Shown here: positions 1 through 6,703 of the stretch, in pieces
Position numbering within the stretch: position 1 is the first letter of the stretch
How the letters are laid out: every line of letters begins with the position of its first letter
Virus record (IMG/VR): IMGVR_UViG_3300014539_000071
Span: 1 to 6,703 of that record
Source of the DNA: a virus
Lineage: Duplodnaviria > Heunggongvirae > Uroviricota > Caudoviricetes
DNA length: 6,703 nt
Reading direction: 5' to 3' (one strand)
Program-made: the position numbers and the translations under genes
Notes under the pieces: model-generated
The model's input: the letters and a program-made list of their open reading frames with translations, nothing else
What the model was told of the DNA's origin: nothing
The model's database searches: none

Positions 1-20
1 ATCGCGGTTACTCTGCTAAT
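1..20 (-). CDS. Rz-like i-spanin, N-terminal codons only (gene runs off the left edge of the window)
   Basis: Minus-strand reading of 20..1 gives ATT AGC AGA GTA ACC GCG AT = (I/M)SRVTAI, matching the MSRVTAII start of lambda-type Rz as I recall it. It sits in the expected position overlapping the 3' end of the endolysin. The start codon position is ATT rather than ATG; an in-frame GTG lies at 32..30. Only 6 codons are visible. Confidence 0.3.
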
Positions 21-514
21 TGTTTCCCCCACAAACAGATTTCACGCTCAATCTCACGACGAGTCATGAGACCTTTCCATTGCTTACCGCCAGCATATGT
101 CCAGCGACGTAGCTGATCACATGCGCCTTTGATATCGCCCTGGTTTATTTTGCGAAGAAGCGTCGATGTTCTGAAATTGCCAGCACCCACGTTGTAAACG
201 AATGAGTAAAGAGCGCCGCGCGTTGTTTCCGGTATATCGACTTCGATGTACGGGTTAATTTGTCTGGCGACAGTGGCAAGGTCTTTATTCAAGAGTGCTT
301 TGCATTCTGCTTTGGTATACGTTTTACCGAGCATGATGTCTTTTCCTGTATGCCCGTGACATACAGTCCATACACCAACAATATCTTTGTATGGTATGTA
401 GCTGACACCTTCCAGACCATCGTTACCACTTGGGCCAGTGATTAACACTGATGCTATAGCAATTGCTCCGCCACCAATAGCAGCAGCAACGGCTTTTCGT
501 AATGATGGAGGCAT
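8..514 (-). CDS. rrrD: SAR (signal-anchor-release) endolysin, phage lysozyme of the T4-lysozyme/GH24 type, phage 21 R / DLP12 RrrD-like
   Basis: 168-aa ORF from the track. N-terminal Gly/Ala-rich weakly hydrophobic segment [20 protein letters not shown] typical of a SAR domain. Catalytic E-x8-D-x5-T arrangement in [18 protein letters not shown]. Recognised from memory as near-identical to phage 21 R / E. coli RrrD. Start ATG (514..512) overlaps the holin stop by 1 nt. Confidence 0.93.
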
Positions 515-729
515 TATTCACCTCTCGCAGCCTTGCGCTTATCTTCTTTAATCTTGAAATAAAGGTTTGTCAGGTACGTCAGCAGGCCAAATACCAGGCT
601 ACCCAGCACACCTATTGCTGCCCACTGTGAGGGCGTGACTTTATCGAGCAGCTGTAAAAACCAGTAACCGGCACTACCTGCTGAGGTGCCATAGGCGACA
701 CCCGTTGTTAACTTATCCATGGATTTCAT
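514..729 (-). CDS. essD: Class II pinholin, phage 21 S21-like, with dual-start motif
   Basis: 71-aa ORF. MKSMDK N-terminus gives two in-frame Met starts (Met1 and Met4), the classic holin/antiholin dual start. Two hydrophobic TM segments ([16 protein letters not shown] and [17 protein letters not shown]) and a charged C-terminal tail [13 protein letters not shown]. Recognised from memory as S21/EssD-like. Stop TAA 516..514 overlaps the endolysin ATG. Confidence 0.9.
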
Positions 730-841
730 AACCCCACCTCGCAGACAAAGCGGGTGTAAATTGAGGGAATACTACGAAACGTAACAGACTCGGAGTCAGT
801 GAATAACTCAGGTATTGGGTTATCAGCTAATATCGAGACTC

Positions 842-874
842 AAAAAATGGAAAAACCCGCTCGACGGCGGGTTT
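842..874 (-). terminator. Candidate intrinsic terminator upstream of the lysis cassette (hairpin plus U-tract on the minus strand; weaker on plus)
   Basis: Stem CCCGC (856-860) pairs with GCGGG (867-871), extendable with A/T pairs 853-855/872-874; loop tcgacg. On the minus-strand transcript the hairpin is followed by UUUUUCCAUUUUUU (complement of 855-842). It lies about 115 nt upstream of the holin start. Confidence 0.5.
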
Positions 875-1199
875 AAGCTGTGTGACGAAGTAACCACTCT
901 TAACAGCATAACCAATTTTTTACGTACGTAAACCACAAAATGATATTTGCGAGAATGCTACCGAGTATTGAAAACACCACTACAAATACATAAGCAAATC
1001 TCAACAAATAACCAACAAATAATTTCCAGTGTTATTTTCAGCCGATTTAAATTGAACCTTCAAATTACAGAGCACTTAAATAACAGCCGTTAATATAAAT
1101 TGGCTAATAGATTTATTTTTATTCAGCCAAGAGCCATGAATAGGATTCGATAGAAAAAAGTTCAGATAAAAATAGAGATCTACTTCACAAATCAAACGA

Positions 1200-1300
1200 G
1201 AAACCAAAACTTACATCTTGAAATAATCACATTGATTAGATGAATATTTATCGCGCAGTGACATCATTTTTTAATAATAGTTCAAAAAAAAGGGCTCACG
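1200..1300 (+). promoter_or_regulatory. Porin upstream region containing the porin promoter and 5' UTR (exact elements not resolved)
   Basis: AT-rich 570-bp non-coding region between holin and porin. Candidate -35/-10-like hexamers (TTGAAA around 1219, TAATAAT around 1272) and a weak SD AAGGG about 9 nt before the ATG at 1301. Assignment is tentative. Confidence 0.25.
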
Positions 1301-2398
1301 ATGAAAAAATTAACAGTGGCAATTTCTGCTGTAGCTGCATCAGTACTGATGGCGATGTCTGCTCAGGCAGCTGAAATTTATAATAAAGACAGTAACAAGC
1401 TGGATCTGTACGGGAAAGTTAATGCTAAGCACTACTTCTCCTCTAATGATGCAGATGATGGTGATACTACTTATGCCCGTCTTGGCTTCAAAGGTGAAAC
1501 CCAAATCAACGATCAACTGACTGGTTTCGGTCAGTGGGAATATGAATTCAAAGGCAACCGCGCTGAATCTCAAGGTTCCTCCAAAGACAAAACCCGTCTT
1601 GCATTTGCAGGCCTGAAATTCGGTGACTACGGCTCAATCGATTACGGCCGTAACTACGGTGTAGCATACGACATCGGTGCGTGGACTGACGTTCTGCCAG
1701 AATTCGGTGGCGATACCTGGACCCAAACAGATGTGTTCATGACTGGTCGCACCACTGGTGTTGCAACCTATCGTAACAACGACTTCTTTGGTCTGGTTGA
1801 TGGTCTGAACTTTGCTGCTCAGTACCAAGGCAAAAACGATCGTAGCGATTTCGATAACTACACTGAAGGTAACGGTGATGGCTTCGGTTTCTCTGCTACC
1901 TATGAATACGAAGGATTCGGTATCGGTGCAACTTATGCGAAATCTGATCGTACCGACACTCAAGTTAATGCAGGGAAAGTTCTTCCTGAAGTATTTGCTT
2001 CCGGTAAAAATGCAGAAGTTTGGGCCGCAGGTCTGAAATATGACGCTAACAACATTTACCTGGCCACTACCTATTCTGAAACCCAGAATATGACTGTATT
2101 TGCTGATCACTTCGTTGCTAATAAAGCCCAAAACTTCGAAGCTGTTGCACAATATCAGTTCGATTTCGGTCTGCGTCCGTCCGTTGCTTACCTGCAATCT
2201 AAAGGTAAGGATCTTGGAGTATGGGGCGATCAGGACTTAGTCAAATATGTTGATGTAGGTGCAACCTATTACTTCAACAAAAATATGTCTACTTTCGTTG
2301 ATTACAAAATCAACCTGCTTGACAAAAATGACTTCACTAAAGCACTCGGTGTAAGCACTGATGACATCGTTGCTGTAGGTCTGGTTTACCAGTTCTAA
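1301..2398 (+). CDS. nmpC: Outer-membrane general porin of the OmpC/OmpF/PhoE family, NmpC / phage PA-2 Lc-like, apparently intact
   Basis: 365-aa ORF. N-terminal signal peptide [23 protein letters not shown] with AQA|AE cleavage site. Porin hallmarks: AEIYNKD...LDLYGK start of the mature protein and C-terminal ...VAVGLVYQF ending in Phe. Recognised from memory as NmpC/Lc. Opposite strand to the flanking phage genes (moron-like). Confidence 0.93.
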
Positions 2399-2408
2399 TC
2401 TGATTACG

Positions 2409-2448
2409 AAAAAGATATGTTGCGGGAGGCGTTGCCTCCCCAACATAT
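2409..2448 (-). terminator. Intrinsic terminator acting on minus-strand transcripts coming from the Q side (tR'-like candidate)
   Basis: Long near-perfect hairpin: ATATGTTGCGGGAGGC (2415-2430) pairs with GCCTCCCCAACATAT (2434-2448), about 15 bp with one bulge and loop gtt. On the minus strand it is followed by CUUUUUC (complement of 2414-2408). On the plus strand there is no U-tract after it. Confidence 0.5.
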
Positions 2449-2535
2449 AAGTGGCTCCCTCAAGCCACTTCCTTTAGAAGCACAACCTTGCTTCTAACTA
2501 TATAAACCTTCTGTTATATATTACCCTTTATTTTT

Positions 2536-2570
2536 GGGGGCGTCTCAACGCCCCATTTTTAATAATTTTT
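2536..2570 (+). terminator. Intrinsic terminator for the porin transcript (plus strand)
   Basis: GC stem GGGGGCG (2536-2542) pairs with CGCCCC (2549-2554), loop tctcaa, followed by ATTTTTAATAATTTTT. Located about 140 nt downstream of the porin stop. Confidence 0.55.
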
Positions 2571-2587
2571 AGTAAACAATTGGCATA

Positions 2588-2971
2588 TTAATTAGAGTTA
2601 TTAACAACGATATCCATCTCTAACCGGATATCTAATGCCATTAACATCCCTTCAATTATGCCCTCAGCCTTCTGTAACCTTTTCCCGATATAACCATCAG
2701 AGCAGCAATGCTTACCTGCCAGTGACATGAATGTCATACCGACTACATAATAATCTACTAATAAATCGTGCAAATCGCTGTTGTTCTTTTTCAGACGGGC
2801 CATGCACCCGCAAATGATCATCGCGTCATCGTCACAACATTGCGGGCGAGATTTTACTTTTGAAGTAATTAATCCCTTAAAACCGGCGGCAATGGACGAC
2901 CAGGTCACATCTTCATGATTATTAGCCGCCCACGCTCCCCAACGCTCAAGAACCATCTGAATATCACGCAT
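2588..2971 (-). CDS. quuD: Late-gene antiterminator Q (phage 21/82-type, QuuD-like)
   Basis: Track ORF 2588..2986 (132 aa). I prefer the second in-frame ATG (2971..2969, [11 protein letters not shown]..., 127 aa) because it is preceded by GGAG with 7-nt spacing. Cys-rich motifs [16 protein letters not shown] and GKHCCSDG. Position immediately upstream of the lysis region and downstream of rusA-ylcG matches the DLP12 order. Recognised from memory as QuuD-like. Confidence 0.85.
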
Positions 2972-3056
2972 CAACTTACTCCACAAAAATCAGACCAAAA
3001 CGCCAATTACAAGCAAAAATCAACAAAACAGTATTAGTTGATTGTTATCTCTGACT

Positions 3057-3197
3057 TCATACTCCTGCTCCTGTCAGGGTTTTGGCGTAATTCTTCAGTA
3101 TTCGGTAATCGGTCAAAACAGAACCGGGGAAACGATATAAGCGCAGACGCCCCCAGCGGTGGCGAAGAAGTTCTGCCATATTAAACTCAAACATCAT
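3057..3197 (-). CDS. ylcG: Small conserved prophage ORF YlcG-like (46 aa)
   Basis: Not in the ORF track (too short). Manual translation of the minus strand gives [46 protein letters not shown], stop TGA 3059..3057. Start ATGATG overlaps the rusA stop codon (ATGA overlap at 3197..3194). Matches my memory of E. coli YlcG and its rusA-ylcG-Q position. Confidence 0.7.
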
Positions 3198-3556
3198 TCA
3201 TTCCCCATTTCGGTGATGGTCAGTTCCAGCCTCCCACCTTTGGTAACAGGCATCTTCACAACGCGGTAATCAACGACCTGAGCATCATCCAGCCAGAAAC
3301 CTGCTTTAGTGAGTGCGTCAAAAGCGGCTTTTTGCAGATTATCCAGGTCACGGCGACGGCGATCCGGCATGTGGCACTCAATGCGGATTTTCACAGGCAT
3401 AGCCAGGCCGATATCCAGCATTGCGTTTTTAATGATTCGGGCGACGTTATCGCGGTATGCCTGCCCCTCTGCGCTGATGTGCGTGCGCCCGCGATTATGG
3501 CGGTAATAGCGATTATTGCTCGGAGGCCAGGGTAATGTGATGCTGTAGGTATTCAC
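3194..3556 (-). CDS. rusA: Holliday-junction resolvase RusA (crossover junction endodeoxyribonuclease)
   Basis: 120-aa [21 protein letters not shown]..., recognised from memory as RusA. Start codon is GTG (3556..3554), preceded by a purine-rich SD AGAGGGGG. Acidic residues within RRRRDLDN are consistent with the RusA active site region. Confidence 0.9.
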
Positions 3557-3559
3557 GCC

Positions 3560-3673
3560 TTAATAACCCCCTCTTTCAGCCAGATAGACGGCCTGCTGTG
3601 AAACTTCGCAGGCAGCGCCTAGTTTCTTTTGTGAACCAACGATATTGATCGCTGTTTTGATGGCTGGGTTCAT
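3560..3673 (-). CDS. Short Cro-like HTH ORF (37 aa), possibly a truncated cro
   Basis: Manual translation: MNPAIKTAINIVGSQKKLGAACEVSQQAVYLAERGGY, stop TAA 3562..3560, 3 nt before the rusA GTG. Strong SD GGAGG (complement of 3679-3683) 5 nt upstream of ATG 3673..3671. GSQKKLGAACEVSQQAVY fits a Cro/CI-type helix-turn-helix, but the ORF ends right after the recognition helix, shorter than typical 60-70 aa Cro proteins. Confidence 0.45.
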   Translation of the reverse strand: MNPAIKTAINIVGSQKKLGAACEVSQQAVYLAERGGY

Positions 3674-3700
3674 AACAACCTCCGTGGTTAATTTGAATCA

Positions 3701-3729
3701 AGATTAAAACTATGGTTGTTTTTAGTCAA
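3701..3729 (-). promoter_or_regulatory. Candidate pR-like sigma-70 promoter driving the Cro-like ORF and rusA-ylcG-Q operon
   Basis: On the minus strand: -35 TTGACT (complement of 3729-3724), exact 17-nt spacer, -10 TAATCT (complement of 3706-3701), then about 25-nt leader to the SD GGAGG and ATG 3673. The -35 and spacer lie inside the palindromic operator at 3712-3736. Confidence 0.45.
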
Positions 3730-3736
3730 CAACCAT
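3712..3736. promoter_or_regulatory. Palindromic operator candidate ATGGTTGTT-N7-AACAACCAT
   Basis: Perfect 9-bp inverted repeat with 7-bp spacer (ATGGTTGTT tttagtc AACAACCAT) centred between the divergent Cro-like and repressor genes. The same half-site (ACAACCA / TGGTTGT) recurs at 3675-3681, 3760-3766 and in a second cluster at 6159-6204. Confidence 0.45.
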
Positions 3737-3742
3737 TTTCGT

Positions 3743-3771
3743 TTGATGAAATAAAACCTTGGTTGTACATT
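3743..3771 (+). promoter_or_regulatory. Candidate pRM-like promoter giving a leaderless repressor mRNA
   Basis: -35 TTGATG (3743-3748), 17-nt spacer, -10 TACATT (3766-3771), placing the transcription start about 7 nt downstream at or near the A of ATG 3778. No Shine-Dalgarno precedes either candidate start (3712 or 3778), as for leaderless lambda cI from pRM. Confidence 0.4.
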
Positions 3772-3777
3772 TGGACT

Positions 3778-4467
3778 ATGAAAACAACACTCTCAGAAAG
3801 ACTTAAAGAAGCCAGATTAGCGCGAGGCCTTACACAAAAGGCGCTTGGGGATTTGGTCGGGGTTAGCCAAGCAGCTATTCAGAAAATCGAAACAGGGAAA
3901 GCTAACCAAACAACTAAAATCGTGGAGATCGCGAACGCTTTGGGTGTGCGCGCAGAATGGTTATCTTCTGGCGTTGGAAATATGTCAGACAGTACAGTGC
4001 AACCAATACAAACAACTGTCAGCCATTCCAAATACTTTAAGATTGACGTTCTTGATATCGAAGTGAGTGCCGGGCCGGGAGTCATCAACCGTGAGTTTGT
4101 AGAAGTTCTACGTTCGGTTGAGTATTCGTTTGACGATGCTCGTCACATGTTCGATGGCAGGAAGGCGGAAAATATCCGTATCATTAACGTACGCGGTGAC
4201 AGCATGTCAGGAACGATCGAACCAGGTGATCTGCTGTTCGTTGATATCACTGTTAAATCTTTCGACGGTGATGGTATCTATGCGTTTCTGTACGACGACA
4301 CAGCCCATGTAAAGCGCCTGCAAATGATGAAGGATAAACTGCTGGTTATCTCTGATAACAAGAGCTACTCACCGTGGGACCCAATCGAGAAAGACGAGAT
4401 GAACCGGGTATTCATCTTCGGGAAAGTCATCGGGAGCATGCCGCAGACGTATAGGAAGCATGGATAA
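3778..4467 (+). CDS. CI/LexA-like repressor: N-terminal XRE-type HTH plus C-terminal S24 autopeptidase domain
   Basis: Track ORF is 3712..4467. I prefer start ATG 3778 (MKTTLSERLKEARLARGLTQKALGDLVGVSQAAIQKIETGK..., 229 aa) because 3712-3777 holds the operator palindrome and pR-like -35. HTH: LTQKALGDLVGVSQAAIQKIETGK. S24 motifs: Ala-Gly candidate cleavage site in VSAGPG (A98-G99 from the 3778 start), nucleophile Ser in RGDSMSG (S142), general-base Lys in HVKRL (K179), with LexA-like Ser-Lys spacing. Confidence 0.85.
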   Translation: MKTTLSERLKEARLARGLTQKALGDLVGVSQAAIQKIETGKANQTTKIVEIANALGVRAEWLSSGVGNMSDSTVQPIQTTVSHSKYFKIDVLDIEVSAGPGVINREFVEVLRSVEYSFDDARHMFDGRKAENIRIINVRGDSMSGTIEPGDLLFVDITVKSFDGDGIYAFLYDDTAHVKRLQMMKDKLLVISDNKSYSPWDPIEKDEMNRVFIFGKVIGSMPQTYRKHG

Positions 4468-4562
4468 TTCGACATAAATTCAACAAGTTAACTTTGGCTT
4501 CAAAAAAGCATCGATAACATTGCATTATATTTTTCCTTTTGTCTAACTTAAAAGGATGAACA

Positions 4563-5288
4563 ATGGAAGAACGTGGGAATTACCTAATAGACCCCCTAGA
4601 AGTAATTGGTTCTGGCGGTTTTGGCCTTGTAGAAAAAATAAGGTTATATAACTCACAAAGAAAAATTTGTGGTCTATATGCCAGAAAAATTTTACGACCT
4701 GATGCAACAGATCCTGAACTCTTTACCAGATTTGAACGAGAAGTAAGATATCAAACTGAATGCCTGCATACTAATATTGTCCAAATATTCATATGCCACT
4801 TACAGAATGCTCAGCCTTGGTTCGTAATGGAACTAGCAGAAACAAATCTTGAAGAAGAAATAAAAAGTGGAACTCTTACAAAGGCTGAAAAAATCTCTAT
4901 TGTAAAAATGGTACTAAATGCCGTCGGATGGATTCATAAGAAAGGATATCTTCATCGGGATATAAAACCACTAAATGTACTAAAATTTAAAGATGGAATT
5001 TATAAGTTATCTGACTTCGGCCTTGCAAAAAATGTGTCACCAGATGCCAATACACAGCTATTAACACAAATTGGCCAATACCCCGCTACTCCTAAATACT
5101 TTGATTACAACGTTTTCCTCAACGGATATTCAAAACAATCAGATATATATTCAATTGGTATTTTAATTGAAGAATTAAATATTGATGGTTTTGATGATAT
5201 AATAAACAAATGTACGCATAGACAACTTAACAAAAGATTCCTGACCGTAGAGCAGATCTTTGAGGAATTGGAGTTGAAACGCTTATGA
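4563..5288 (+). CDS. Compact Hanks-type (eukaryotic-like) Ser/Thr protein kinase, catalytic domain only
   Basis: 241-aa ORF with all core kinase motifs in order: glycine loop GSGGFG, beta3 Lys in YARK, alphaC Glu in FEREV, catalytic loop HRDIKPLN, DFG in SDFGLAK, subdomain IX SDIYSIG. SD AAGGA (4552-4556) 6 nt upstream of the ATG. No extra sensor domain. Low GC by eye relative to the rest of the window. Confidence 0.85.
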   Translation: MEERGNYLIDPLEVIGSGGFGLVEKIRLYNSQRKICGLYARKILRPDATDPELFTRFEREVRYQTECLHTNIVQIFICHLQNAQPWFVMELAETNLEEEIKSGTLTKAEKISIVKMVLNAVGWIHKKGYLHRDIKPLNVLKFKDGIYKLSDFGLAKNVSPDANTQLLTQIGQYPATPKYFDYNVFLNGYSKQSDIYSIGILIEELNIDGFDDIINKCTHRQLNKRFLTVEQIFEELELKRL

Positions 5289-6028
5289 TTAGCATACTCT
5301 CATCATCCATATTTTCTGTACCAAAACATAATGGCAGGGAAAATCAAGATAGCGTGCTTTATCCACTTCAAACACCAAATGGTTATCTTATGGCTATAGC
5401 TGATGGGGTTGGTGGTTATAAAGGAGGAAAAGAAGCATCTGCAGCAGTAATAAATCATTTGTATAGTATTAAAGACAGCTTCACTCATGAAGACAATGTC
5501 TTATCCTTACTTAAGACCCTACAAGAAAAGGTGGCATCTCTTTCGTCAGTTGATAAAGAATTAGCATCTGCTGCTACAACTTTAACAATGTGCCTACTTC
5601 ACAATCAAGGTCTAACAATTATACATGTAGGTGACTGTCGTGTTTATTTAAAAAATGGAAATAAGCTAATCCAATTAACAACAGATCATACTCAACATCA
5701 AATGTTGATAGATAGCGGTATTTATACAGCTCGACAGCTCAAAAATGCAAAAGGTAAAAATATTATTACAACTGCACTTGCTGCCAAGATCCCTCTTCAA
5801 CATCAAGTCATAAATATTGATAAAGATGAACTTCCTCTTGACGATGGTGTTCTATCTCTATTCATCATGTCTGATGGCGCGCATACCTTTTGGGAGCAAC
5901 GCCCACGATTTTCTTACCGTACATTGTCAACCGCATCAAGGTTTGCCTCCAGCCTAATGCGAAGAATAGAGACAAAAGGCCCGACTGACGATTATTCTCT
6001 TATAGCGGTAAATGTAAAGTATTTGTAA
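5285..6028 (+). CDS. PP2C-family (PPM) Ser/Thr protein phosphatase
   Basis: 247-aa ORF. PP2C metal-binding motifs: ENQDS near the N-terminus, DGxGG as ADGVGG, GDSR-like HVGDCRV, LTxDH as LTTDHT, SDG as MSDGAH, and C-terminal DDYSLIAVNV. Start ATG overlaps the kinase stop (ATGA at 5285-5288), implying translational coupling. Confidence 0.8.
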   Translation: MISILSSSIFSVPKHNGRENQDSVLYPLQTPNGYLMAIADGVGGYKGGKEASAAVINHLYSIKDSFTHEDNVLSLLKTLQEKVASLSSVDKELASAATTLTMCLLHNQGLTIIHVGDCRVYLKNGNKLIQLTTDHTQHQMLIDSGIYTARQLKNAKGKNIITTALAAKIPLQHQVINIDKDELPLDDGVLSLFIMSDGAHTFWEQRPRFSYRTLSTASRFASSLMRRIETKGPTDDYSLIAVNVKYL

Positions 6029-6032
6029 ACTT

Positions 6033-6059
6033 CCCGGCCACCGTGCCGGGTTTTCTTTT
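6033..6059 (+). terminator. Intrinsic terminator closing the repressor-kinase-phosphatase operon
   Basis: Stem CCCGGC (6033-6038) pairs with GCCGGG (6045-6050), loop caccgt, followed by TTTTCTTTT (6051-6059), beginning 5 nt after the phosphatase stop. No U-tract on the minus strand, so unidirectional. Confidence 0.7.
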
Positions 6060-6154
6060 ATCCCCTCCCCTCATCACGTATACCGTTCAAAAAACCACCA
6101 CAATCTCCCTTCAGTTATCGCTATGCGATGCAAGTCACAAAATAAATCCATCCT

Positions 6155-6236
6155 AAATACAACCAGTTACATCTAAAACAACCAATAAAACAACTTTTGT
6201 TGTTGACGATAAAACAACTATAGTTTTAAATAAATT
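6155..6236 (+). promoter_or_regulatory. Second operator-like cluster with a candidate pL-like promoter (OL-like region)
   Basis: Repeated half-sites resembling the 3712-3736 operator: ACAACCAG (6159-6166), ACAACCAA (6178-6185), AAAACAACT (6186-6194, 6211-6219). Inverted repeat AACAAC-TTTT-GTTGTT (6189-6204) overlaps a -35-like TTGACG (6203-6208); a weak -10-like TTAAAT follows at 6226-6231 after 17 nt. Promoter call is weak; the half-site clustering is the stronger signal. Confidence 0.3.
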
Positions 6237-6508
6237 CATCGCAACAACACAACGATACGGCAACCACCTGATTCACCGTTGCGATGACCGCTTAGATCCG
6301 CAGCTTGAATTTCAGCAGGCTTCGGGAAGTGCGAGGGGTGAAGCGGACGCGTGAACGTCGGTGTGACCAGCTGAAATCAACTCAACACTTCATACCTCAG
6401 TCGCTTCAACGAGGCGGCTTAGTTATGACAACCGGCGGCCATCCACCGCCTGAATACGCGCAGAAGTCTTTATATGTTCAGCAGCCCAGCTTACGGGCAG
6501 GAGTTTTT

Positions 6509-6703
6509 ATGGTTCATCAACATTACGGAACGCAGACCGTTAATCGCGGTGCGGTCATGCCAGGAATGCTGGTCAAACACAAAGATGGTACCTGGACTGC
6601 ATCAGCTAATTTATGCGGACGGCTATATCTGCATCGCGGCATCGAGCGCACTTATACCCGTGATTTGCTCGTGGAAGTTTTTCTCGACGGACGAGGCAAC
6701 GGC
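6509..6703 (+). CDS. 5' part of an ORF of unknown function running off the right edge of the window
   Basis: The frame is open from 6296 to the window end. ATG 6509 has a strong SD AGGAG (6499-6503) with 5-nt spacer and gives MVHQHYGTQTVNRGAVMPGMLVKHKDGTWTASANLCGRLYLHRGIERTYTRDLLVEVFLDGRGNG... An alternative in-frame ATG at 6425 has a weaker SD. Not in the ORF track, presumably because it has no stop inside the window. I do not recognise the product. Confidence 0.35.
   Translation, partial: MVHQHYGTQTVNRGAVMPGMLVKHKDGTWTASANLCGRLYLHRGIERTYTRDLLVEVFLDGRGNG

What the first reader, a model, noticed from the sequence alone, without database searches (positions are those of the whole stretch)
4468..6028. 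Compositional island: kinase-phosphatase genes are markedly more AT-rich than neighbouring phage genes
Seen directly by eye (not computed): the kinase and phosphatase coding sequences are dominated by A/T-rich codons, with long runs such as aaaaaataaggttatataactcacaaagaaaaattt, whereas the repressor, rusA, Q, lysozyme and porin look close to 50% GC. This suggests recent horizontal acquisition of the pair from a low-GC donor and insertion into the rexAB slot, consistent with mobile defence cargo.
Basis: seen in the sequence. Interest (0 to 1): 0.45.

Follow-up and report, generated by a model that had tools for sequence, protein, structure and literature searches.

The report
AT-rich kinase-phosphatase cargo behind prophage repressor
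The AT-rich stretch is real: it is a swappable two-gene cargo (a protein kinase and its opposing phosphatase) in the known accessory-gene slot behind a prophage repressor, but the low GC is a lasting trait of such cargo everywhere, so it does not point to a recent arrival from a low-GC donor.

Summary
Observation confirmed. Window 4468-6028 has 35.3% GC against 44.6% for the rest. GC3 is 25% against 40-59%. The lowest-GC 1561-nt window starts at 4464. Neighbouring genes are 43-53% GC, not all "close to 50%", and a second AT-rich tract (730-1300) was missed.

Comparison with E. coli prophages puts the island at 4468-6032, from the cI stop codon to a shared terminator hairpin. In relatives this slot, positionally equivalent to lambda rexAB, holds unrelated cargos. 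All are 34-40% GC.

The cargo is a Hanks-type Ser/Thr kinase (241 aa, no extra domain detected) translationally coupled to a PP2C phosphatase (247 aa). Both keep their catalytic residues. The pair is conserved in all 14 individually examined related loci and in 79 of 80 viral contigs, in three accessory-gene slots of temperate phages and near defence genes.

Horizontal mobility is supported: the cassette is 100% identical between prophages whose flanks are 77-90% identical. "Low-GC donor" is not supported: the cassette is 4-20 points below its flanks in every host, even after synonymous-site saturation.

[quoted passage not shown] It resembles KKP and 933W Stk but belongs to neither. The composition is ordinary. 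The cargo is moderately interesting and uncharacterised.

The parts
3557..3673 (-). Truncated cro (cro'). The first 30 codons are followed by 7 foreign codons and a stop. The deletion junction is at about 3584-3586.
   Evidence: the first 30 aa are identical to Cro of E. coli R1 (L003) and then diverge (LAERGGY*); the window lacks L003 261-8116 (ybcO to cro, 7.9 kb).
3712..3736 (.). Operator-like perfect palindrome ATGGTTGTT-N7-AACAACCAT in the cro-cI intergenic region (OR candidate).
   Evidence: The same AACAAC/GTTGTT half-sites recur at 6189-6218. Assignment as an operator is inferred.
3778..4467 (+). cI-type repressor (HTH_3 + Peptidase_S24), 229 aa plus the stop codon. An upstream ATG at 3712 would give 251 aa.
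   Evidence: Pfam. Relatives are annotated as 690 nt, and as 756 nt. A possible leaderless PRM (TTGATG-17-TACATT, 3743-3771) was read and is inferred.
4468..6032 (+). The exchangeable AT-rich cargo island (35.3% GC), bounded by the cI stop codon and the shared terminator.
4468..4562 (+). Cargo-specific leader, 28% GC, with an AAGGA ribosome-binding site before the kinase ATG. No sigma-70-like promoter or terminator was detected.
4563..5288 (+). Hanks-type Ser/Thr protein kinase of 241 aa: a bare catalytic domain with no extra domain detected.
   Evidence: Pkinase, E = 3e-32; invariant G16/G18/G21, K42, E60, H131-R132-D133, K135, N138, D151-F152-G153, T168 and R225. AF2 pLDDT 87, best fold match PknB (TM 0.75), activation loop 156-173 disordered.
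5285..6028 (+). PP2C (PPM) Ser/Thr phosphatase of 247 aa. Its start overlaps the kinase stop (ATGA), which indicates translational coupling.
   Evidence: PP2C_2, E = 5e-12. PstP/tPphA/Stp1 relatives; invariant D22, D40-G41, G116-D117, D197-G198 and D235-D236. One search shows the overlap.
6033..6059 (+). Intrinsic terminator CCCGGCCACCGTGCCGGG followed by a T-tract. It is shared by all cargo variants and ends the cI operon.
   Evidence: found in 9 of 10 prophages compared.
6189..6218 (.). Two overlapping operator-like palindromes (AACAAC-N4-GTTGTT and GTTGTT-N8-AACAAC) over a TTGACG-17-TTAAAT promoter-like site. These are OL/PL candidates.
   Evidence: 0.01-0.03 expected by chance. The promoter reading comes and is inferred.
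6510..6703 (+). Start of the kil-like cell-division-inhibitor gene. It runs off the window and is the first conserved gene after the slot.
   Evidence: annotated homologue in L002/L003. GC is 52%.

Best explanation
The AT-rich island is a two-gene accessory cassette in the cargo slot between the repressor gene cI and the terminator in front of OL/PL. The host element is a defective DLP12-type lambdoid prophage of E. coli.

Shown:
- The island runs from the cI stop codon to a shared terminator hairpin.
- In related prophages the same flanks enclose unrelated cargos.
- The cassette encodes a catalytically intact Hanks-type Ser/Thr kinase translationally coupled to a catalytically intact PP2C phosphatase.
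- The pair travels as a unit among three accessory-gene slots of temperate phages (behind cI, behind Q, behind the lysis genes) and lies near defence genes in chromosomes.
- It is under purifying selection.
- It is 4-20 GC points below its surroundings in every host.

Inferred:
- With no promoter or terminator between cI and the kinase, the pair is transcribed with cI in the lysogen, as rexAB and 933W stk are.
- The kinase is an RD kinase with an invariant activation-loop Thr168. It is probably a latent toxin or effector kept dephosphorylated by the co-made phosphatase.
- An infecting phage would tip the balance, either by activating the kinase (as HK97 does to 933W Stk) or by inhibiting the phosphatase (as in KKP). 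Broad phosphorylation of host or phage proteins would then abort the infection.
- The AT-richness reflects the standing composition of this mobile accessory-gene pool: weak codon selection, AT-biased mutation and possibly H-NS silencing. It is not a donor fingerprint.

The overall confidence of 0.6 combines about 0.95 for exchangeable slot cargo, about 0.8 for AT-richness as a persistent pool property, and about 0.5 for an anti-phage function.
For: Composition.

Boundaries and slot:
- Searches show sharp homology breaks at 4467/4468 and 6032/6033.
- Searches show the other slot contents: DUF7946, PDC-M11 A+B, PDC-M63 A+B, a SIR2 protein (PDC-S25), two pairs of small ORFs, and a deletion remnant.
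- these cargos are 34-40% GC, against cI at about 47% and downstream DNA at about 48%.
- the cargos share no DNA similarity with one another.
- three alternative cargos match PADLOC candidate defence families over their full length.
- PMC8585504 states that the cI-N region of lambdoid phages is a known mosaic hotspot that holds rexAB and bstA.

Enzymes.

Pair conservation and mobility:
- the pair is present in every related locus examined individually.
- 79 of 80 viral contigs have the pair. At least 12 lie behind a cI-like gene, at least 20 behind Q and at least 12 behind lysis genes.
- the cassette is 100% identical across prophages whose flanks are 77-90% identical.
- only 15 of 5426 complete E. 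coli genomes carry it, all at 99.8% identity or more.

Persistence of AT-richness:
- 12/12 loci are below their flanks, mean -12 points, r = 0.79 with flank GC.
- 79/79 viral contigs are below their flanks.
- pS 0.76-0.88 (saturated), pN 0.07-0.26, GC still 0.38.

Expression signals.

Defence neighbourhood: one search shows a ThsB-like TIR protein plus PDC-S60 in Yersinia, and a HEC-04 ATPase in Xanthomonas.

Precedents: KKP, in which the kinases act as toxin and the PP2C as antitoxin and a phage protein inhibits the phosphatase (PMC11341870). 933W Stk, which is activated by HK97 and mediates exclusion (PMC3681748).
Against: - No experiment or transcript data were available for this family, and no paper on it was found.
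- The kinase carries no detected sensor domain, so how infection would be sensed is unknown.
- The PADLOC kinase hits (PD-T4-6, mad6, Stk2) cover only the generic catalytic domain. The PP2C hits one candidate family weakly (33 bits).
- No NCBIfam model passes its cut-off.
- In many phages the pair lies in the late region, behind Q or the lysis genes. It could be expressed there during lytic growth, which fits a phage-benefit role as well as a defence role.
- Co-transcription with cI rests on the absence of consensus signals, which is weak evidence.
Confidence: 0.6

Rival explanations
1. The pair was recently acquired from a low-GC donor lineage, and its AT-richness is the still unameliorated signature of that donor.
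For: - The island is 9 GC points below the rest of the window and uses rare E. coli codons.
- The cassette is rare in E. coli (15 of 5426 genomes) and nearly identical wherever it is found. It is 100% identical across divergent prophages.
- The lowest-GC family members are in Acinetobacter-like contexts, at 29-33%.
Against: - Even in the lowest-GC hosts the cassette is 10-11 points below its flanks.
- It is below its flanks in 12/12 genomic loci and 79/79 viral loci.
- Relatives with saturated synonymous sites still sit behind repressors and are still 38% GC, so the bias is an equilibrium and not a relic.
- All unrelated cargos of the slot have the same GC.
- Cassette GC tracks host GC (r = 0.79), which implies long residence within each host group.
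Confidence: 0.12
2. The pair is chiefly a regulator of the prophage's own lysogeny or induction, or of host physiology. It would phosphorylate a host nucleoid or regulatory protein, as KKP does with MvaU. It would not primarily be an anti-phage system.
For: - It lies in the immunity operon next to cI in the window and in diverged relatives.
- KKP controls Pf lysogeny through MvaU phosphorylation (PMC11341870).
- A kinase-phosphatase pair is by nature a reversible switch.
Against: - The same pair also sits behind Q, behind the lysis genes and in non-prophage chromosomal sites. That fits portable, context-independent cargo better than a regulator wired to one repressor.
- The window's prophage lacks its replication genes but keeps the pair.
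- The alternative occupants of the slot are defence candidates.
Confidence: 0.18
3. The pair serves the phage during lytic growth through host takeover or counter-defence by mass phosphorylation, as reported for the T7 kinase. Protection of the lysogen would not be its role.
For: - Many family members lie in late-operon positions, with at least 20 behind Q and at least 12 behind lysis genes.
- A T7 kinase that disarms defences by phosphorylation is listed (PMC13645617, title and abstract only).
Against: - In the window and its closest relatives the pair is on the cI strand, behind cI and in front of a terminator. That transcription unit is active in lysogens and shut off in lytic growth.
- A co-encoded antagonist phosphatase is not expected for a pure takeover kinase.
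- Chromosomal copies occur outside prophages.
Confidence: 0.08
4. The island is decaying, non-functional DNA in a dead prophage, and its AT-richness reflects mutational decay.
For: The prophage is defective: a 7.9-kb deletion removed cro (partly), O, P, ren and the nin genes.
Against: - Both ORFs are intact and all catalytic residues are invariant.
- pN is far below pS in comparisons with relatives.
- The cassette is 99.8-100% identical to copies in apparently complete prophages.
- The AF2 model is confident.
Confidence: 0.02

Closest known systems
KKP (kinase-kinase-phosphatase) module of Pseudomonas Pf6 and of P2/P4/Mu-like prophages (Guo et al. 2024, PMC11341870)
   Same: It is prophage-borne. 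It combines Hanks-type Ser/Thr kinase activity with a PP2C (PF13672) phosphatase in one operon. There it acts as a phosphorylation-based toxin-antitoxin and anti-phage module. It is horizontally mobile among temperate elements.
   Different: KKP has three genes: a PP2C plus two kinases carrying C-terminal CSD and FHA domains, and both kinases are required. The window has one 241-aa kinase with no extra domain detected, followed by the PP2C. No sequence-level comparison with PfkA, PfkB or PfpC could be made here.
Stk of Shiga-toxin phage 933W (eukaryote-like kinase behind cI; excludes HK97)
   Same: It occupies the same genomic position, downstream of cI and in front of OL. It has the same AT-rich composition (35.4% GC, GC3 28%). 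It is a Hanks-type kinase and has a documented exclusion phenotype (PMC3681748).
   Different: Identity with the window's kinase is only 26%. Stk is 348 aa, is separated from cI by a 924-nt spacer, and has no partner phosphatase.
lambda rexA-rexB and Salmonella BTP1 bstA (abortive-infection cargo of the cI operon)
   Same: They occupy the same slot and presumably share the expression logic, being co-transcribed with the repressor in lysogens. They are accessory genes that protect the lysogen.
   Different: The proteins and mechanisms are unrelated. lambda rexAB is only mildly AT-shifted (40-42% GC against cI at 45%).
PD-T4-6, Stk2 and MAD6 defence kinases (PADLOC/NCBIfam models)
   Same: The kinase catalytic domain matches their profiles (E = 1e-27 to 1e-39).
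   Different: The matches cover only the catalytic core of longer proteins. The MAD6 NCBIfam score is 66.7 bits against a cut-off of 460. None of these systems includes a PP2C partner as defined.
Phage 'morons' (Hendrix/Juhala concept; from my own knowledge)
   Same: It is an extra gene block between genes that are adjacent in related phages, with deviant and usually lower GC. It is expressed from the prophage and ends with a terminator.
   Different: No promoter of its own was detected. It appears to use the cI promoters and the slot's resident terminator.

Membership tests
Hanks-type (eukaryote-like) Ser/Thr protein kinase | Gly-rich loop, VAIK Lys, alphaC Glu, HRD catalytic loop with Lys/Asn (the HRDxKxxN Ser/Thr signature) and a DFG motif | tested here: met
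   G16/G18/G21, K42, E60, H131-R132-D133-I-K135-P-x-N138 and D151-F152-G153 are invariant in 28 sequences. Pkinase at 112 bits against a cut-off of 31.7.
Hanks-type (eukaryote-like) Ser/Thr protein kinase | Bilobal kinase fold | tested here: met
   the AF2 model has pLDDT 87 and pTM 0.86. Foldseek's best hits are the PknB kinase domain (TM 0.75-0.76, E = 4e-15).
Hanks-type (eukaryote-like) Ser/Thr protein kinase | APE motif at the end of the activation segment | tested here: not met
   the enterobacterial branch, including the window, has (T/S)PKYFD. Distant members keep APE. This is a variation within the fold and does not exclude membership.
PPM/PP2C Ser/Thr phosphatase | Conserved metal-binding Asp residues of motifs 1, 2, 8 and 11 (xxD, DGxGG, xDG, DD) | tested here: met
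   D22, D40-G41-V-G43, D197-G198 and D235-D236 are invariant in 10 sequences. PP2C_2 at 46 bits against a cut-off of 24. PstP, tPphA and Stp1 at E = 1e-13 to 1e-8.
KKP module | Three-gene cluster of a PP2C plus two kinases | tested here: not met
   the only ORFs of 40 aa or more on the + strand between cI and the terminator (4468-6032) are one kinase, one PP2C and a 46-aa ORF inside the PP2C gene. The same two-gene unit is present in all the individually examined related loci.
KKP module | Kinases fused to CSD (PF00313) and FHA (PF00498) domains | tested here: not met
   no CSD or FHA hit. The kinase is 241 aa, and the Pkinase match to residues 12-205 plus the invariant subdomain-XI Arg225 leave no room for a further domain. 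The defining features are as stated in PMC11341870.
KKP module | Kinase toxicity neutralised by the phosphatase, with anti-phage activity | not testable with these tools
   This needs expression and phage-plating experiments.
933W Stk family | Sequence homology beyond the generic kinase core, in a single-gene architecture | tested here: not met
   25.7% identity over 216 aa; stk is 1047 nt and has no phosphatase. Only the position behind cI is shared.
PD-T4-6 / MAD6 / Stk2 (PADLOC, NCBIfam) | Full-length match to the family model above its threshold | tested here: not met
   the matches cover only the catalytic-core positions of longer profiles. MAD6 scores 66.7 bits against a cut-off of 460, and the PASTA kinase model 105 against 450.
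Phage moron / cargo of the cI-OL hotspot | Lies between genes that are contiguous, or separated by other cargo, in related phages | tested here: met
   the flanks are identical, the cargos are unrelated, and one relative holds a 121-nt remnant.
Phage moron / cargo of the cI-OL hotspot | Nucleotide composition distinct from the neighbours | tested here: met
Phage moron / cargo of the cI-OL hotspot | Own promoter and terminator | tested here: inconclusive
   no consensus promoter in 4468-4562, and the terminator at 6033 belongs to the slot and not to the cargo. Consensus scans cannot exclude a weak or non-sigma-70 promoter.

The most novel reading that the evidence does not exclude
The bare kinase + PP2C pair would be a minimal, self-contained, phosphorylation-based abortive-infection or toxin-antitoxin system that has not been experimentally described. 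It would be a compact family (about 21 clusters at 50% identity among 1.84 billion representatives) that hops between the three classic accessory-gene slots of temperate enterobacterial phages and chromosomal defence islands. Because the kinase has no detected sensor domain, the phage trigger would have to act directly on a catalytic domain, for example by inhibiting the phosphatase. The recurring link with DUF7946 may point to a functional partner or alternative: it occupies the same slot in 77 E. coli genomes and lies directly upstream of the pair in Xanthomonas.
Probability: 0.4. Interest if true: 0.55.

Novelty: new variant of a known kind. Interest (0 to 1): 0.36.

Why it matters
The compositional signal itself is textbook: accessory cargo in prophages is AT-rich. 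Its practical value is as a marker. In this prophage family, a GC drop bounded by the cI stop codon and a conserved terminator hairpin pinpoints a cargo-exchange slot. About 2200 of 5426 complete E. coli genomes carry this type of cI gene. The slot already yields several candidate defence systems, namely PDC-M11, PDC-M63 and a SIR2 protein, plus unannotated small ORF pairs and DUF7946.

The kinase-PP2C pair is a small, easily testable addition to the few phosphorylation-based phage-exclusion systems known (933W Stk, KKP, Stk2). The analysis also gives a caution. Low GC in such cargo should not be read as evidence of recency or of a low-GC donor, because here it persists across hosts of 40-61% GC and through saturation of synonymous sites.

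Tried and rejected
It returned one true family member (Pseudomonas koreensis) among 80 loci. I switched to exact-protein look-ups and to a viral-contig scan with the more specific PP2C motifs.
- Megablast of the island against the phage collection found nothing. A protein-level search was needed.
- The dinucleotide relative-abundance signature was not decisive at this length.
- dN/dS could not be computed because synonymous sites are saturated. I report pN and pS instead.
- The apparently empty slot in strain AR_0104 turned out to be a deletion remnant of the PDC-M11 cargo and not a virgin site.
- Rfam found nothing at E <= 0.1 in the whole window. The RNA fold of 6238-6509 is not better than shuffles (z = -0.79), so there is no support for a put-like RNA there.
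- Literature searches for this two-gene family, for DUF7946 and for the phiES15 kinase gave no functional study. The Histophilus "kinase-phosphatase pair" lies next to the tellurite-resistance genes terDEZ and I did not take it as relevant.
- I set aside an NleH/OspG-type effector kinase reading. The best of the 485 PDB sequence matches at E <= 1e-10 (60 listed) are StkP and PknB, then PAK, SYK and other eukaryotic kinases. The gene is also translationally coupled to a phosphatase.
Full report
**What the window is**

ORF listing and Pfam give the following genes:
- lysozyme, 8-514 (-)
- P21-type holin, 514-729 (-)
- an OmpC-like porin, 1301-2398 (+)
- antiterminator Q, 2588-2986 (-)
- RusA, 3194-3556 (-)
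- a cI-type repressor (HTH + S24 peptidase), 3778-4467 (+)
- a protein kinase, 4563-5288 (+)
- a PP2C phosphatase, 5285-6028 (+)

Megablast against 5426 complete E. coli genomes shows that 1-3586 is about 99% identical to DLP12-type prophages (essD, rrrD, quuD, rusA). No genome holds 80% or more of the window in one piece.

The closest relative of the right half is the prophage at argU/intD of E. coli R1 (L003). It is 98-100% identical over 3584-6703. Relative to it, the window lacks 7.9 kb (L003 261-8116), running from ybcO through the replication genes into cro. What remains of cro is its first 30 codons fused to 7 foreign codons. The window therefore comes from a defective prophage that has lost its replication module but kept cI and what follows it.

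**Checking the observation**

The finding is correct.
- The kinase gene is 34.2% GC, the PP2C gene 37.2%, and the 95-nt leader 28.4%.
- Interval 4468-6028 is 35.3% GC, against 44.6% for the rest (p = 1e-10).
- The drop is greatest at third codon positions: GC3 is 0.25 in both genes and 0.40-0.59 in the six other genes. It therefore reflects codon choice and not amino-acid content alone.
- Of all 1561-nt windows, the one with the lowest GC starts at 4464.

Codon usage is significantly different: chi2 = 138, df = 41, p = 2e-12. A/T-ending synonymous codons are 77% against 57%. Six codons that are rare in E. coli occur four times as often.

Two qualifications apply.
- The neighbours range from 42.9% (Q) to 52.9% (rusA), so they are not uniformly "close to 50%".
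- There is a second AT-rich tract at 730-1300 (35% GC, minimum 29%).

The GC-normalised dinucleotide signature is elevated but not unique in the window.

**Exact limits and nature of the island**

I aligned the window with prophages of strains E3 and 74-2.
- Homology runs through cI to its stop codon (window 4465-4467) and then vanishes.
- It resumes exactly at a G+C-rich hairpin, CCCGGCCACCGTGCCGGG followed by a T-tract, at 6033. One search also flags this hairpin as an intrinsic terminator.

The island is therefore 4468-6032.

Between the same two landmarks, other E. coli prophages carry different contents:
- a DUF7946 gene (77 genomes)
- a 353-aa protein plus an ASCH protein (275 genomes)
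- DUF6932 plus a 310-aa protein
- a 533-aa SIR2 protein
- two different pairs of small ORFs
- a 121-nt remnant of one of these cargos

The cargos share no DNA similarity with one another.

Three of them match PADLOC candidate defence families over their full length: PDC-M11 A+B, PDC-M63 A+B and PDC-S25.

The cI C-terminal type that flanks the slot occurs in 2209 of 5426 genomes. The kinase-PP2C cargo occurs in only 15.

Downstream of the terminator lie operator-like palindromes with the same AACAAC/GTTGTT half-sites as the palindrome between cro' and cI. They overlap a TTGACG-17-TTAAAT promoter-like site. The kil-like gene follows.

This is the arrangement of lambda, where rexA and rexB lie between cI and OL. 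It is also that of 933W-type phages, where stk does. The cI-N interval of lambdoid phages is described in the literature as a mosaic hotspot that harbours rexAB and bstA (PMC8585504).

**What the cargo encodes**

*The kinase*
- It is 241 aa and consists of a Hanks-type catalytic domain with no extra domain detected.
- In an alignment of 28 family members, the Gly-rich loop, K42, E60, H131-R132-D133-x-K135-x-x-N138, D151-F152-G153 and R225 are invariant.
- The HRDxKxxN signature is that of Ser/Thr kinases (established knowledge).
- An AlphaFold model is confident (pLDDT 87) except for the activation loop 156-173, which contains an invariant Thr168.
- The best structural matches are the PknB kinase domain (TM 0.75).
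- In the enterobacterial branch the APE motif is replaced by PKYFD.

*The phosphatase*
- It is 247 aa and keeps all canonical PPM metal-binding aspartates: D22, D40, D117, D197 and D235/D236.
- Its nearest solved relatives are PstP, tPphA and Stp1.
- Its ATG overlaps the kinase stop codon (ATGA).
- Such tight coupling, from a 13-nt overlap to a 6-nt gap, is seen in the other loci read (coordinates).

*Family assignment*
- No curated NCBIfam model passes its threshold.
- PHROGs places the kinase in phrog_2361 and the phosphatase in a family of unknown function.
- PADLOC hits for the kinase (mad6, PD-T4-6, Stk2) cover only the generic catalytic core. The phosphatase hits one candidate family weakly.

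**Distribution**

The kinase family is well delimited. Scores drop from 175 to 115 bits after about 58 clusters. Where a source names the organism, members come from Escherichia, Yersinia, Rahnella, Klebsiella, Pectobacterium, Pantoea, Rouxiella, Proteus, Serratia, Cronobacter, Providencia, Acinetobacter and Xanthomonas, plus one MAG labelled Bacilli. A Pseudomonas koreensis copy turned up.

The PP2C family has only 21 clusters at E <= 1e-30 among 1.84 billion representatives.

The two genes are adjacent, in the same order, in every locus examined individually:
- phage Flotzy, behind Rz
- Cronobacter phage phiES15, between Q and lysis
- a second E. coli prophage type present in about 53 genomes, between Q and lysis
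- a Serratia prophage, behind lysis
- a Klebsiella mobile element
- Acinetobacter chromosomal sites
- Yersinia, next to a ThsB-like TIR protein and an nSTAND NTPase
- Xanthomonas, next to a HEC-04-like ATPase, ParE/PhD and, in one case, a DUF7946 gene
- Pseudomonas koreensis

In IMG/VR, 79 of 80 contigs with a PP2C relative have the kinase directly upstream. At least 12 lie behind a cI-like gene, at least 20 behind Q and at least 12 behind lysis genes.

Relatives whose kinases are only 86% and 78% identical also sit directly behind a prophage repressor.

**What the AT-richness means**

*Evidence for horizontal exchange.* The cassette is 100% identical (1565/1565) between the window and strain TUM14771. 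That strain's prophage is integrated elsewhere. Its cI N-terminal part is 77% identical and its downstream DNA 90% identical. Likewise, each of the other cargos is 99% or more identical in all its carriers, while the flanking cI segment ranges from 90 to 99%. The cargo is thus being exchanged among prophages by recombination in the conserved flanks.

*Evidence against a donor fingerprint.*
- In 12 of 12 genomic loci the cassette is below its flanks, by a mean of 12 points. This holds from Acinetobacter-type contexts (cassette 30-31%, flanks 40-42%) to Xanthomonas (41-44% against 59-61%). Cassette GC correlates with flank GC (r = 0.79, p = 0.002).
- In 79 of 79 viral contigs it is below its flanks, by a mean of 10 points.
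- Against the 86% and 78% relatives, synonymous sites are saturated (pS 0.76-0.88) while pN is 0.07-0.26. Those copies are still 38% GC next to repressors of 45-50%.
- All unrelated cargos of the slot are 34-40% GC, and 933W stk is 35%.

The low GC is therefore a stable property of this mobile accessory-gene pool. It follows the host composition at a distance. It says nothing about recency or about a particular donor.

Likely causes, from general knowledge and not tested here:
- weak selection on codon usage in lowly expressed accessory genes, under the universal GC-to-AT mutational bias
- the generally lower GC of mobile elements
- selection for H-NS silencing of potentially toxic genes

**How it most likely works**

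*Shown:* an intact kinase and an intact antagonistic phosphatase, translationally coupled, under purifying selection, and moving as a unit.

*Inferred from anatomy:* there is no promoter-like or terminator-like site between cI and the kinase, and a strong terminator lies directly after the phosphatase. The pair is therefore probably part of the cI transcript made in lysogens, as with rexAB, bstA and 933W stk.

*Inferred from precedent:*
- In KKP, kinase activity is toxic, the PP2C is the antitoxin, and a phage replication protein that inhibits the phosphatase unleashes the kinases and aborts infection (PMC11341870).
- In 933W, Stk is inactive until HK97 infects and then excludes it.

I propose the same logic for this pair. 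An RD kinase needs activation-loop phosphorylation, with the invariant Thr168 as the candidate site. The co-made PP2C holds it off, and an infecting phage releases it.

I put about 0.5 on an anti-phage role. I put about 0.95 on the pair being exchangeable slot cargo, and about 0.8 on the AT-richness being a persistent pool property.

The rivals are a lysogeny or host-physiology switch, a lytic-cycle takeover or counter-defence function, and decay. They are set out separately with their evidence.

**Comparison and novelty**

The pair works like KKP but fails its membership test: it has one kinase, no CSD or FHA domain, and two genes. It shares position and composition with 933W stk but not family (26% identity, no phosphatase). 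It is not PD-T4-6, MAD6 or Stk2 beyond the shared catalytic core.

I found no paper on this two-gene family. The search covers only the held library.

The compositional observation is ordinary and already explained by the moron/hotspot concept. The cargo is a new, minimal variant of a known kind of system.

Noticed in passing
window 730-1300: A second AT-rich tract (35% GC, minimum 29% around 1001-1300) lies between the holin gene and the porin gene and has no ORF of 60 aa or more. The finding does not mention it. The porin gene (1301-2398, +) lies antisense to the Q-holin-lysozyme late genes, so it occupies another accessory-gene slot.
   Followed up: no
window 3557-3673 (junction about 3584-3586): Relative to E. 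coli R1, a 7.9-kb deletion fuses the first 30 codons of cro to sequence just upstream of rusA. It removes ybcO, ninE, ybcN, ybcM, ybcL, ybcK, emrE, ren, P, O and the ydaT-like gene. The PR side would now read cro'-rusA-Q directly. No complete E. coli genome among the 5426 has this junction, since no place covers 80% or more of the window.
   Followed up: partly
L001 10042-10905; L086 7096-7896: A DUF7946 gene occupies the same cI slot in 77 E. coli genomes. A DUF7946 gene also lies directly upstream of the kinase-PP2C pair in a Xanthomonas contig. It has no PADLOC hit, and no paper mentions it. It may be a functional partner or an alternative to the pair.
   Followed up: partly
L099 3868-3988: The apparently empty cI slot of E. 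coli AR_0104 consists of the first 45 nt and the last 80 nt of the PDC-M11 (353-aa + ASCH) cargo. This is a cargo loss by internal deletion and not an unoccupied site.
   Followed up: yes
L098 3948-4666; L101 3942-4753: Two further slot contents are pairs of small unannotated ORFs (89+146 aa and 132+130 aa), 36-40% GC. I did not analyse them.
   Followed up: no
window 3712-3780: The longest cI ORF starts at 3712, inside the operator-like palindrome (251 aa). Most relatives are annotated from 3778 (229-230 aa), but one is annotated from the upstream ATG. TTGATG-17-TACATT ends 6 nt before the 3778 ATG, which suggests a leaderless PRM-type transcript as in lambda.
   Followed up: no
window 6060-6509: There is no N-like ORF between the PL-like promoter (about 6203-6231) and the kil-like gene at 6510. 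About 280 nt of roughly 50% GC are unassigned. Rfam gives no hit, and the RNA fold is no better than shuffles (z = -0.79).
   Followed up: partly
window 5285-6028 (phrog_5650): The PP2C matches positions 276-519 of a 565-position PHROG profile of unknown function. Some phages may therefore encode a longer, possibly fused, protein.
   Followed up: no
L102 4731-6235: A second, diverged kinase-PP2C cassette sits between Q and a DNA methyltransferase/tRNA/lysis block in another lambdoid prophage. It matches the window's cassette over only 14% of the query, at 69% DNA identity, and occurs in about 53 complete E. coli genomes. This is the position that stx genes occupy in Stx phages.
   Followed up: partly
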